This document shows, one piece after another, positions 11,201 through 13,633 of a stretch of 64,000 bases of DNA. Source of the DNA: Lingula anatina (taxonomy: Eukaryota; Animalia; Brachiopoda); NCBI GenBank assembly GCA_051362555.1, contig CM120642.1:20460001-20524000 (forward strand). The letters run 5' to 3'. The translations under genes were made by a program, and so were the position numbers. A model generated the notes under the pieces. That model had not been told where the DNA came from. It saw nothing but the letters and a program-made list of their open reading frames with translations, and did no database searches. Positions within the stretch are counted from its first letter, which is position 1. Every line of letters begins with the position of its first letter.

Positions 11201-13633
11201 CGGAAGTGACGGCGCGAAAGGTGATAGCGGTCCACCCGGGCCCACTGGACCCGCGGGAGCACGAGGCCAAACTGGCACTCCCGGCCTTCCTGGTCAGAGT
11301 GGAGAAGATGGAGCTCCCGGTCCCAAAGGGGAAGACGGTGAAGATGGACAACCAGGAGCCCGTGGCCCGCCAGGACCCACGGGGCCCAGTGGGCAACCTG
11401 GACCTAGAGGAGAGGCTGGTGAACCTGGAAGTCCTGGACCGACCGGTCCTGCTGGTCAGCAGGGAGCTGATGGTGAAGATGGACCACCAGGCCCTACAGG
11501 TCCTGCAGGCCCCAGAGGTGAGACAGGAGAAGCGGGAAGTTCGGGTAGTCCAGGTCCACAAGGGCCTACGGGACCGACAGGGGCATCGGGAGATTCAGGA
11601 ATGGTTGACAGTTGCTTTCCAACCTTGCATTGCCCAGTACCTTGCTACAGCGGATATACATCACGTAAGCTTTTTTTCTCGATTTAATCTATTACTTTTT
11701 GGTCCAGTTAAGTGATATTCCAAATTTAATGGAACTGCATTGTTTTTAGAGTAGAACGCGTGCAAATTTTAACAGGTATAGTATTATTGCGGAAGAAATA
11801 AATATATGCATTTGTGTATAATACCATACTTACATCTTAATCGAATTTTCATGCTCTTAGTGTGTAACGGAAATATGTGGCAGAATCCAACAGCGCTGGT
11901 AAGCAGAGCCGTATCTCTCATCGACCAGTGTGGGATATTCCCCCGGAATAACGTTAACTTTCTTTGGCGGTCTTACTGGATGAATCCCTACACCGTCAAT
12001 CTTCCTGGCAGCGGGGGGTGCGGCCCAGGCGGGTGTCTCGGGGGAGGTTTCCCAACTGGTATTCATTATGGCGGCTACCCCGGCCCAAACTCTGGGCCCG
12101 TAGGAGCACCAGCAGGTCTCATGGCTCACTTTCAGCCTCCGGACGGCAGCAACACATCCGTACAGGCGGCGTGGAAAGCAGTCATGAACGTGAACGGCGG
12201 GTCCCCAATGACTGTAGACCCTCAGAAACTTGGGGCGGGCGGACTGTGGCAGGTGAGAAAGAATCTGCTGATATTACACCAATCAGTAGAAGTCGACGAC
12301 AGAACGTTATAATAACGTTACCATAATGTTTTTTTTGTTTTTATCAACGTTATGGTAAAGTTATAATAACGTTATGTGTTTATGGGATAGGAGCGGAGCC
12401 GGTGTGATAGGAATGGTAGTCCTAGGAATGGAAGTGCGGAGTCCCGTATGATTAGTACTAGTTAGGATTAGTCGGATATTGGGGTTAGTATATGGGACGA
12501 TAATGGACCACCTGTACAAATTAATGGGGAACGGAGTACGATTCCCAGCAATCTACCATTCCTGTCACACCGGTAGTGGGGCTTGAGCACTTTTTTCAAC
12601 CAGTTCAGTAATAACCACGAAGGGCAGAGACCTAAGGGAGGGCTGGGTTCCACTGCTTTGAAACTAAATGTAAACTTCAGTGTATCATTAAAATGTTGCG
12701 CCGAGGACTGCGACTTATTTTCTCAACCAGCTTGCAACATCATTTACATCATTTTTTGCCATTTCCCCTTTCTCTGTCGCTAATTGTGTGTCTACTTATG
12801 ATTCCCCCTTGCAGCTTATACTTTTCATCATACGAGCCTGAATAATTTTCATTCGTTAGTAGAATTGTGGATGTTCTACCGCATGTAGCAACGCTTGAAA
12901 TTAAACACATGTTAGATTAAGGGGGTAAGCGACTCAAGCGTTGCAAGTTAATGTATGGCAAGCCAGCAATTTCAAAAAGGGGGGTTCTTTTTCTGAATAT
13001 AGTTTTTCCCATAAAAACTTCATGTACCTAGATCAAATTTTCCCAGAGTGGACCTTTTCCTAGCAAAAAGGGCGGTTCTTCGAACCCCCCGAACCCCCCT
13101 GGCTACGGGCCTGTATGGGTATCTCTGGATAGACTTCAGCCCTTCCTTCAGCTACAAGTGCAAGTGGGTACAAACAAGCCGCCCACTTCCCTTAGCTAGT
13201 ATAGCGTATAGTTATAGGGTTTGGACCTAGGACTATGCGCTACAATGGAGCATCGCAAGATCTCCCCTAAATATTCAAAACTTTGGTATGATTTTCTGCC
13301 TTCCAGGTTCCAGAGAAAATGTTCAACGCCACCAAAAGGGCCGCTGATCGTCGCGCCTTACAGAACTACTACCAACAGATACAACGGCAGTTCTGCGTGG
13401 ATTGGACACAGATGCCGTACGGCTGTTTGCGCAACCCCCTTTACTCCGCCATGGCAACACAGATGTACCTCTTAGTACAGCCCAGGCCAGTGCCCTCGGG
13501 ATGCGCCCAGCAGGCTACGATGTGGTCCAATTTCGTTCAGCAGTCCAATATGCGGCAAGCGTTTGTACAGAACTGTTACTCAGCCCCGAACTATAATCAG
13601 TTGAATCAACAGCTTCAGTATTTTCTTGTGTAA
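1056..13633 (+). CDS. Whole gene model: secreted multidomain collagen (SP-CTLD-like-vWA-SUEL-EGFx6-collagen-lysozyme-like), 18 coding exons, ~1788 aa (1774 aa with the alternative exon 13 acceptor)
   Basis: Hand-joined exons 1056-1167, 1659-1925, 2590-2700, 2910-3218, 3417-3803, 4081-4272, 4992-5027, 5482-5742, 6058-6189, 6650-6892, 7258-7491, 7790-7906, 8399(or 8441)-8647, 8961-9158, 9644-9832, 10054-11664, 11861-12252, 13307-13633. All are GT-AG bounded and frame-compatible without stops. AATAAA follows at 13833. Confidence 0.85.
1659..1925 (+). CDS. Exon 2: N-terminal part of a C-type lectin-like domain
   Basis: TACAG acceptor, GTAAG donor, 267 nt. W..V...C..F...[17 protein letters not shown] matches the CTLD helix-1 pattern (EA..YC...GG.LV). 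Confidence 0.8.
2523..2547. repeat. (GA)n microsatellite
   Basis: Direct observation. Confidence 0.9.
2590..2700 (+). CDS. Exon 3: CTLD-like middle part (FWTGG...VKWNG)
   Basis: TTTGTAG acceptor, GTACAA donor, 111 nt, phase 1-1. FWTG and KWNG resemble the CTLD WIG and W.DG motifs. Confidence 0.7.
2910..3218 (+). CDS. Exon 4: Cys-containing segment ending [11 protein letters not shown] (probable CTLD C-terminal strand with a long insertion)
   Basis: TTTCCAG acceptor, GTAAG donor, 309 nt open frame, phase 1-1. Confidence 0.75.
3417..3803 (+). CDS. Exon 5: von Willebrand factor A domain, first part
   Basis: [12 protein letters not shown] (MIDAS DxSxS), [22 protein letters not shown] acceptor and GTAATG donor. 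Confidence 0.95.
4081..4272 (+). CDS. Exon 6: vWA domain, second part
   Basis: Translates [37 protein letters not shown]...RACR, the typical vWA C-terminal half. TTTTAAG acceptor, GTAGGT donor, 192 nt. Not in the ORF track. Confidence 0.9.
4992..5027 (+). CDS. Exon 7: 36-nt micro-exon linker ([12 protein letters not shown])
   Basis: Strong TTTCAG acceptor and GTAAGT donor; GC-rich island in an AT-rich intron; phase 1-1. Confidence 0.7.
5482..5742 (+). CDS. Exon 8: SUEL / rhamnose-galactose-binding lectin-like domain (divergent)
   Basis: CE.....LQCP....I.V ... [10 protein letters not shown] ... DC ... LRVNYMC reproduces the SUEL cysteine pattern; GTAAGT donor; 261 nt. Confidence 0.8.
6058..6189 (+). 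CDS. Exon 9: EGF-like domain 1
   Basis: [12 protein letters not shown]...[22 protein letters not shown] acceptor and GTAAGT donor; not in the ORF track. Confidence 0.92.
6205..6252. repeat. Compound (CT)n(GT)n(GC)n microsatellite
   Basis: Direct observation. Confidence 0.9.
6650..6892 (+). CDS. Exon 10: EGF-like domains 2 and 3
   Basis: [12 protein letters not shown]...[12 protein letters not shown] and [12 protein letters not shown]...[12 protein letters not shown]; canonical splice sites. Confidence 0.93.
7258..7491 (+). CDS. Exon 11: EGF-like domains 4 and 5
   Basis: [13 protein letters not shown]...[12 protein letters not shown] and [12 protein letters not shown]...[12 protein letters not shown]; canonical splice sites. 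Confidence 0.93.
7790..7906 (+). CDS. Exon 12: EGF-like domain 6
   Basis: [12 protein letters not shown]...[21 protein letters not shown] acceptor and GTAAGT donor. Confidence 0.92.
8224..8286. repeat. Compound (CT)n(GT)n microsatellite
   Basis: Direct observation. Confidence 0.95.
8399..8647 (+). CDS. Exon 13: start of the collagen triple helix (Gly-X-Y from 8449); acceptor at 8399 or 8441
   Basis: 22 uninterrupted Gly-X-Y triplets; donor G|GTACAA splits a Gly codon; two frame-compatible acceptors. Confidence 0.88.
8961..9158 (+). CDS. Exon 14: collagen Gly-X-Y (22 triplets, includes one RGD)
   Basis: 198 nt; TTTCAG acceptor and GTGAGA donor; perfect Gly periodicity. Confidence 0.93.
9232..9374. 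mobile_element. Degenerate MITE with GGTGTGACAGGAA-type TIR, in intron 14
   Basis: GGTTGTGACAAGAATGGTAGTCCT ... TTCCTGTCACACC; left end is shared with the element at 12399; internal CCCTAACCC. Confidence 0.55.
9505..9539 (+). mobile_element. Possible 3' end of a Helentron-associated (HINE/DINE-like) element
   Basis: CAGAGGTCTGTACTCTCCGGGTGCCTTTCTGGGTT resembles such termini (short hairpin, then TTCT(A/G)GTT). Recognised from memory only. Confidence 0.25.
9644..9832 (+). CDS. Exon 15: collagen Gly-X-Y (21 triplets)
   Basis: 189 nt; CTATAG acceptor and GTGGGC donor; perfect Gly periodicity. Confidence 0.92.
10054..11664 (+). CDS. Exon 16: large collagen exon (~172 triplets, one G-A-G interruption) followed by a Cys-rich neck
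   Basis: 1611 nt open frame; helix ends at GDSGMV and is followed by [24 protein letters not shown] acceptor and GTAAGC donor. Confidence 0.95.
11861..12252 (+). CDS. Exon 17: C-terminal non-collagenous domain part 1, with a Gly/Pro-rich insert
   Basis: CTCTTAG acceptor (phase 1), CAG|GTGAGA donor (phase 0); ends ...GAGGLWQ. Confidence 0.85.
12303..12373. repeat. Imperfect 28-bp inverted repeat (hairpin) in intron 17
   Basis: AACGTTATAATAACGTTACCATAATGTT matches the reverse complement of 12346-12373 with 3 mismatches. Confidence 0.7.
12399..12573. mobile_element. MITE with 21-bp TIRs in intron 17
   Basis: CCGGTGTGATAGGAATGGTAG ... CTACCATTCCTGTCACACCGG (1 mismatch); weaker complementarity continues inward. 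Confidence 0.75.
12954..13113. mobile_element. Degenerate non-autonomous DNA transposon with a CAGGCCCGTAGCCAGG-type end
   Basis: Right end GAACCCCCCGAACCCCCCTGGCTACGGGCCTG; eroded left end AGCCAG...AAAAGGGGGGTTC. Confidence 0.45.
13307..13633 (+). CDS. Exon 18: C-terminal domain part 2 and stop codon
   Basis: TTCCAG acceptor, phase 0, gives GGLWQ|VPEKMF...FCVDW...[10 protein letters not shown]...QATMW...; TAA at 13631-13633. Confidence 0.85.
   Translation, partial: VPEKMFNATKRAADRRALQNYYQQIQRQFCVDWTQMPYGCLRNPLYSAMATQMYLLVQPRPVPSGCAQQATMWSNFVQQSNMRQAFVQNCYSAPNYNQLNQQLQYFLV

What the first reader, a model, noticed from the sequence alone, without database searches (positions are those of the whole stretch)
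11861..13633. C-terminal domain looks like a catalytically dead lysozyme/transglycosylase-like fold in place of COLFI or C1q
The spliced sequence reads [31 protein letters not shown]...[insert]...[15 protein letters not shown]...[38 protein letters not shown]...[12 protein letters not shown]. From memory this follows an uncharacterised invertebrate domain family: VV..I...IF.DD..FLRR.AYVES...GGIWQVD...F..T...I...FGIDW....DLRKPLYS.LAA.L.L...IP....QA.YW. Its ES and G.WQV motifs correspond to the catalytic Glu and GLMQ motifs of the lysozyme-like superfamily. Here the AYVES position reads SYWMN, with no Glu, and is followed by a long Gly/Pro-rich insertion ([26 protein letters not shown]). It may have been repurposed as a trimerisation or glycan-binding head.
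Basis: partly seen in the sequence, partly recalled or inferred. Interest (0 to 1): 0.75.

Follow-up and report, generated by a model that had tools for sequence, protein, structure and literature searches.

The report
Collagen capped by a disarmed lysozyme
A lamp-shell (Lingula-like brachiopod) collagen gene ends in a spliced, expressed domain from an unnamed protein family shared by animals and phages and predicted to have a lysozyme fold; this copy lacks the family's conserved glutamate, so it is likely a dead enzyme reused as the collagen's end cap.

Summary
RNA reads join the collagen exon to both last exons. They close an 18-exon, 1810-residue VWA-EGF-collagen gene. The last exon is 99% identical to a Lingula anatina RefSeq protein that is annotated as a separate 131-residue fragment. 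The domain belongs to a family with no Pfam model, matching phage family phrog_3108. A family model matches lysozyme-like folds (best MltE, Z 9.4), and the family Glu aligns weakly with MltE E64. One phage member sits next to holin and spanin genes. The Glu is kept in 73 of 81 family domains; exon 17 encodes no Glu at all. A second conserved cleft residue (Tyr) is also gone. Alleles are mostly silent (26 against 6), so the domain is maintained. The whole domain could not be folded; trimerisation and glycan binding are untested. Verdict: a real, apparently undescribed collagen architecture with a likely pseudo-enzyme head.

The parts
1056..13633 (+). 18-exon gene, 1810 aa: hydrophobic N-terminus, unassigned modules, VWA, six EGF, 237 Gly-X-Y triplets with one interruption, Cys-rich linker, C-terminal lysozyme-like domain
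   Evidence: One open frame with GT-AG introns. 12 of 17 introns appear in the joints table and intron 1 in its table 5c; four are inferred from GT-AG and frame.
3417..4272 (+). VWA domain, exons 5-6
   Evidence: Pfam VWA E 8.7e-23 on the exon 5 frame
6058..7906 (+). Six EGF-like repeats, exons 9-12
   Evidence: Pfam EGF on all four exons, 1+2+2+1 stretches
8399..11664 (+). Collagen triple-helix region, exons 13-16 (111 + 126 triplets), ending in the Cys-rich linker
   Evidence: Pfam Collagen E 5e-84 on exon 16
11601..11865 (+). Linker between helix and head with four Cys, spanning intron 16
   Evidence: 4 Cys in the linker, 11 in linker plus head
11861..12252 (+). Exon 17: first helix, the helix that carries the family Glu, the insert and the GGLWQ motif; encodes no Glu
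11983..11985 (+). Asn codon: Glu-equivalent site if the insert follows the helix
   Evidence: hhalign and HMM diagonal
11986..12183 (+). About 67-residue Gly/Pro-rich insert (edges can slide by about 8 residues); under purifying selection
   Evidence: 95 residues between two anchor columns against 19-35 in 84 family rows; 17 silent against 5 replacement allele calls
12184..12186 (+). Met codon: Glu-equivalent site if the insert precedes the end of the helix; also the start of the truncated RefSeq model
13307..13633 (+). Exon 18: helical core of the family domain, to the stop codon; conserved Tyr column is Val

Best explanation
The last two exons of this VWA-EGF-collagen gene encode a member of an unnamed animal and phage family predicted to have a lysozyme fold, and this copy lacks the family's conserved Glu, so it is likely catalytically dead and likely serves as the C-terminal globular head that brings three chains together. 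Shown: splicing, expression, family membership, absence of Glu, purifying selection. Predicted: the fold (from a family member) and the catalytic role of the family Glu (from alignment to MltE E64). Inferred: the head folds, gathers three chains, the Cys-rich linker locks them by disulfides, and the helix then zips from the C-terminal end, as NC1 or COLFI domains do in other collagens (established knowledge, recalled).
For: Read-supported fusion to the collagen exon. 100 bits to the family profile; N-terminal part beats 60 of 60 shuffles. Family model pLDDT 92.8; VIA-align best rows MltE Z 9.4 (rmsd 3.5, 124 aligned), phiKZ gp144 8.8, Ralstonia chitinase 8.3, with lysozyme-superfamily entries filling nearly all 50 rows. 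Family Glu on MltE E64 (weak: probability 2%, E 0.021). Glu in 73 of 81 domains, none in exon 17. 23 of 34 strongly conserved columns are kept, mainly Trp, Pro, Gly and Leu; lost are Ala, Glu, Ser, Arg and Tyr columns; Tyr or Phe stands in 91 of 98 rows where Lingula has Val. 26 silent against 6 replacement allele calls in exon 17, where 24% of sites are silent. The exon 17 and exon 18 peptides dock with weak support: 0.43 against best control 0.02, partner pLDDT at least 37, runs agree in at least 44% of contacts; the mark was reached by 51 of 78 solved and 2 of 108 mismatched pairs, but at 0.60 or under by only 5 of the 78 and by all 4 mismatches that passed. Terminal position after 237 triplets; 11 Cys, an odd number, in linker plus head.
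Against: No trimer was tested, and nothing shows that any family member oligomerises. The whole spliced domain was not folded. The link to the lysozyme superfamily rests on middling Z scores and Foldseek rows no better than E 0.16. No family member has a measured activity that I found. An odd Cys count also fits a link to another protein. Purifying selection does not tell which function is kept. N-terminal modules of unknown kind could also drive chain assembly.
Confidence: 0.42

Rival explanations
1. The dead domain is a glycan-binding head: it holds chitin or bacterial wall in the old cleft without cutting, tying the collagen to a chitin matrix or to microbes, as collectin or ficolin heads do.
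For: Closest solved folds include MltE with chitopentaose and Ralstonia chitinase. Family members are fused to chitin-binding PF01607 domains (2 of 9 rows). Collagen-chitin composites are described in the Lingula shell (PMC13425148, passages).
Against: Conserved Ala, Ser, Arg and Tyr columns are replaced together with the Glu, and the insert sits between the Glu helix and the GGLWQ motif, where it could cover the cleft (inferred). The RefSeq accession prefix is absent from the 2026 shell-proteome supplement, with a working positive control.
Confidence: 0.28
2. The head is a docking module for another matrix or cell-surface protein, with the conserved insert as the new binding surface; chain assembly is left to the Cys-rich linker alone.
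For: The insert is unique among 84 family rows yet constrained (17 silent, 5 replacement). Glu-less c-type lysozyme relatives such as SLLP1 work without catalysis (PMC5104373, passages).
Against: No partner is known; nothing here tests it.
Confidence: 0.22
3. The domain is still an enzyme, using another acid, or the family Glu is not catalytic at all.
For: Asp codons at 12142 and 12217 lie in or just after the insert, and a Glu at 13313 follows the GGLWQ motif. The register around the insert is unresolved. The family's activity has not been measured.
Against: None of these acids falls on the Glu column in the top-scoring registers. The Tyr column is lost too. Family Glu conservation and alignment to MltE E64 fit catalysis.
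Confidence: 0.08

Closest known systems
phrog_3108 (phage proteins of unknown function; phiKO2 gp54, PMBT28 AUZ95556) and its unnamed animal relatives
   Same: 34 of 37 aligned family members match phrog_3108. Lingula shares the helical core. In PMBT28 the member lies directly before a holin and an Rz-like spanin gene, which suggests an endolysin.
   Different: The three phage members examined keep the Glu and stand alone. Neither Lingula exon matches phrog_3108 by itself at E<=0.01. None of 96 proteins fetched has a collagen repeat.
GH23-type lysozyme-like enzymes: E. coli MltE, Slt70, phiKZ gp144, Ralstonia chitinase, goose-type lysozyme
   Same: Predicted fold of the family; Glu-Ser and GxWQ motifs align with MltE E64-Ser and GLMQ.
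   Different: 10-18% identity; no Pfam match. Lingula lacks the Glu-Ser pair and the later Tyr, and carries an insert.
Lingula EGF-containing collagens (Luo et al. 2015, PMC4595640)
   Same: EGF plus collagen, no COLFI (passages).
   Different: The paper's main text and held supplement never mention lysozyme. Whether this gene is among its models or in the shell was not established.
Catalytically dead lysozyme relatives: SLLP1/SPACA3, LYZL4 (PMC5104373); alpha-lactalbumin (recalled)
   Same: Lysozyme fold kept, catalytic acids replaced.
   Different: They are c-type, stand-alone mammalian proteins, not collagen heads.
Collagens with C-terminal heads: fibrillar (COLFI), type IV (C4), C1q-type, collectins, ficolins (recalled)
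   Same: Globular domain directly after a long triple helix.
   Different: The head is unrelated to any of them; no Pfam match.

Membership tests
Unnamed phrog_3108-like animal/phage family | Significant match to a profile of the family | tested here: met
   100 bits, E 5e-33, profile built without the Lingula protein
Unnamed phrog_3108-like animal/phage family | Two N-terminal helical segments ending in the xFLRRIA pattern | tested here: met
   117.0 bits against at most 107.4 in 60 shuffles; hhalign E 0.0033
Unnamed phrog_3108-like animal/phage family | Conserved Glu-Ser pair | tested here: not met
   No Glu in exon 17; Asn or Met at the column; Glu in 73 of 81 family domains
Lysozyme-like superfamily | Fold, tested on a standard family member (P0009) | tested here: met
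   Z 9.4, rmsd 3.5, 124 aligned to MltE; 44 of 48161 chains at Z>=5, nearly all listed rows from this superfamily
Lysozyme-like superfamily | Fold, tested on the Lingula sequence itself | tested here: inconclusive
   Only the 131-residue fragment without the first two helices could be modelled
Active GH23 lysozymes and lytic transglycosylases | Catalytic Glu at the end of the helix before the GLMQ-like motif | tested here: not met
Active GH23 lysozymes and lytic transglycosylases | Cleavage of peptidoglycan or chitin | not testable with these tools
   Needs an assay
Fibrillar (COLFI), type IV or C1q-type collagens | COLFI, C4 or C1q domain after the helix | tested here: not met
   No such Pfam match on either exon at E<=5; the segment is explained by another family
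Lingula EGF-collagens | EGF repeats and collagen helix in one chain, no COLFI | tested here: met
Lingula shell matrix proteins | Detected in shell proteome | tested here: inconclusive
   Accession prefix absent from one supplement; the accession of the collagen part is unknown
Collagen trimerisation domains | Forms homotrimers and nucleates the helix | not tested
   The whole domain was not available as one chain for a three-copy prediction

The most novel reading that the evidence does not exclude
Many invertebrates carry an undescribed lysozyme-fold family related to phage endolysins, and in Lingula one copy was disarmed and turned into a new kind of collagen trimerisation head, independent of COLFI, C4 and C1q.
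Probability: 0.35. Interest if true: 0.72.

Novelty: new variant of a known kind. Interest (0 to 1): 0.52.

Why it matters
Lingula's EGF-collagens lack COLFI, which leaves open how their chains assemble; this gene offers a testable candidate head. The fusion is hidden in RefSeq, where the domain is a truncated stand-alone protein. The work also points to an animal family with no Pfam model, predicted lysozyme fold, a conserved Glu and phage relatives in a lysis cassette: a candidate new class of invertebrate wall-cutting enzymes that has also lost the Glu in other members.

Tried and rejected
Pfam on both exons: nothing above noise. Pfam and NCBIfam on 37 family members: no family-wide match. 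PDB by sequence: nothing for the last exon; one unrelated row at E 1.3 for the profile. Foldseek against PDB for the family model: no row at E<=0.001; the top seven rows are Ralstonia chitinase at E 0.16-0.45. Model of the 131-residue Lingula fragment (pLDDT 77): best Z 4.7, no lysozyme-like row listed; the fragment lacks two helices, so this neither supports nor refutes. Searches for a full-length database copy, 229-2000 aa, found none (weak evidence). Longer family members: 9 found, none with a collagen domain (only 540-2000 aa and the top 7991 candidates scored). No second copy in the window; no whole genome is held, so paralogues were not counted. Tree: quick method only; the Lingula row has a long branch and odd composition, nearest are two Glu-less Amphiura rows at support 90, unstarred; no origin or direction of transfer is claimed. 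No RNA holder was listed by index; raw-read runs were laid instead. Earlier scan findings: none. Literature searches (listings, with passages read in PMC4595640, PMC13425148, PMC6139136, PMC5104373) showed no description of this family or of a collagen with a lysozyme-like head; subscription journals and bioRxiv supplements are not covered.
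Full report
1. Observation. The stretch is the end of a eukaryotic gene on the + strand. Exon 16 ends at 11664, exon 17 spans 11861-12252 and exon 18 spans 13307-13633. Raw RNA reads confirm both splices: 52, 35 and 11 reads in X4, X5 and X9 for the first; 60 plus 77 reads in X4 and 5 and 7 reads in X7 and X8 for the second. Of seven runs laid, X4 and X5 cover these exons deeply, X7, X8 and X9 thinly, and X1 and X6 show none, so expression differs between samples. 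The full model has 18 exons and 1810 codons in one frame: hydrophobic N-terminus, VWA, six EGF repeats and collagen, with 237 Gly-X-Y triplets and one interruption. Thirteen of 17 introns are seen in reads; four are inferred.

2. Identity. The last exon is 99% identical to XP_013392578.1 of Lingula anatina, an 'uncharacterized' 131-residue model. That model starts at the Met at 12184, inside exon 17, and has no collagen part. The reads show that the domain is in fact the C-terminus of the collagen. Luo et al. 2015 describe Lingula collagens with EGF and without COLFI (PMC4595640, passages of main text and a term search of the supplement); they do not mention lysozyme.

3. The family. The last exon finds 76 proteins at E<=0.001. 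Named ones come from a brittle star, a clam and a coral, often fused to VWA, EGF or chitin-binding domains; most carry no name. There is no family-wide Pfam or NCBIfam match, but 34 of 37 aligned members match phrog_3108. The Atlas look-alikes of member P0009 are unnamed, mostly viral clusters (0.95); the nearest named ones are SLT and phage lysozyme clusters at 0.86, a lead only. Eighteen of 50,697 phage records hold a relative. Three were opened: in PMBT28 the gene directly precedes a holin and an Rz-like spanin gene; in phiKO2 the neighbours are unassigned; in Shewanella phage 1/44 it lies among tail genes. A wall-cutting role for Glu-bearing members is therefore inferred, not shown.

4. 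Fold. An AlphaFold2 model of P0009 has pLDDT 92.8. VIA-align against 48,161 chains ranks MltE (Z 9.4, rmsd 3.5, 124 aligned), gp144 (8.8), MltC (8.8), GH73 enzymes, Ralstonia chitinase (8.3) and goose-type lysozyme (6.7); nearly all 50 rows belong to the lysozyme-like superfamily. Single Z values are middling; the uniform list is the argument. Foldseek ranks Ralstonia chitinase first but only at E 0.16. hhalign lays the family Glu-Ser on MltE E64-Ser and the GxWQ motif on GLMQ, at low probability. Range arithmetic agrees: model residue 48 lies 29 after the start of the MltE range (35, giving 64) and 33 after the start of the gp144 range (82, giving 115; gp144's catalytic E115 is recalled). This is not a residue-level alignment. 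A model of the Lingula fragment, which lacks the first two helices, gave no informative match.

5. Loss of the Glu. Among 102 domain rows from 96 proteins, 81 cover the column: 73 Glu, 4 Met, 2 Ala, 1 Asp, 1 Gln (some rows are near-duplicates). The spliced Lingula domain scores 100 bits. Removing a block from exon 17 raises this to 117.0 at best, for a 67-residue block; 0 of 60 shuffles of the first 60 residues reach it under the same search. On that diagonal the Glu column holds the Asn of SYWMN or the Met of AVMNV, depending on where the insert is cut. hhalign independently sets the Met of SYWMN on the family Val. Of 34 columns conserved in at least 70% of 81 rows, 23 are kept; the losses include Ala, Glu, Ser, Arg and Tyr columns. 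The Tyr column holds Tyr or Phe in 91 of 98 rows and Val here; by eye it corresponds to the Tyr of the GH23 AYNxG motif (recalled). The family spacing across the insert site is 19-35 residues in 84 rows, against 95 here.

6. Selection. Of 32 allele calls in exon 17, 26 are silent and 6 replace a residue, with 24% of sites silent (p about 1e-11; equal rates assumed, neighbouring changes in one codon counted apart; three runs). In the insert the count is 17 to 5. No allele is listed at either candidate site, and no indel. The domain, insert included, is maintained.

7. Mechanism. The two exon peptides dock with weak support: 0.43 against best control 0.02, partner pLDDT at least 37, at least 44% of contacts shared; such a low pass was reached by only 5 of 78 solved complexes and by all 4 mismatches that passed. 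It gave no contacts, so the register stays open. I favour a catalytically dead head that gathers three chains (0.42): it ends a 237-triplet helix, follows a four-Cys linker, and the cleft looks remodelled rather than merely disarmed. Glycan binding (0.28) and docking to another protein (0.22) remain open; residual activity is unlikely (0.08). Taken alone, membership of the family is near certain, the lysozyme-like fold about 0.9, and loss of glycosidase activity about 0.85 (my estimates).

8. Novelty. Dead lysozyme folds are known (SLLP1, LYZL4; PMC5104373, passages), and EGF-collagens are known in Lingula. A collagen ending in this domain was not found among 96 fetched proteins or in nine literature searches. 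These searches are limited in reach. Other Glu-less members exist, so the loss itself is not unique. Verdict: new variant of a known kind, interest 0.52.

Noticed in passing
P0015, P0077; P0025, P0029, P0060, P0083: Other family members lack the Glu: two Amphiura proteins (Ala; by eye fused to a trypsin-like domain) and four unnamed proteins with Met, three of which form a supported clade apart from Lingula in the quick tree. The loss seems to have happened more than once.
   Followed up: partly
L003:2387-3695: phrog_3108 gene directly before holin and Rz-like spanin genes in phage PMBT28: a candidate unannotated endolysin family.
   Followed up: partly
window 8399-11664 (+): The Y position of the triplets holds Thr (58 of 237) more often than Pro (44). 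This recalls Thr-rich vent-worm cuticle collagens stabilised by glycosylated Thr (recalled).
   Followed up: no
window 15531-16703 (-): Single open frame of 390 codons facing the collagen gene, with a weak polysaccharide deacetylase match (E 0.042) and low read depth in X1. By eye the usual Asp-Asp and His metal ligands look replaced (motifs recalled), so it may be another dead enzyme.
   Followed up: no
window 42842-43786 (+): POU-homeodomain coding frame (Pfam Pou E 1e-30, Homeodomain E 2e-18).
   Followed up: no
window 12961-13113 and 12403-12434: Short multi-copy elements in intron 17 that attract many reads from other loci.
   Followed up: no
window about 700-890: Tandem repeat of a roughly 18-base unit upstream of the first exon.
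   Followed up: no
window 1659-3218 and 5482-5742 (+): Cys-containing modules in exons 2-4 and 8 of the same gene; exons 2, 4 and 8 gave no Pfam match at E<=0.01.
   Followed up: no
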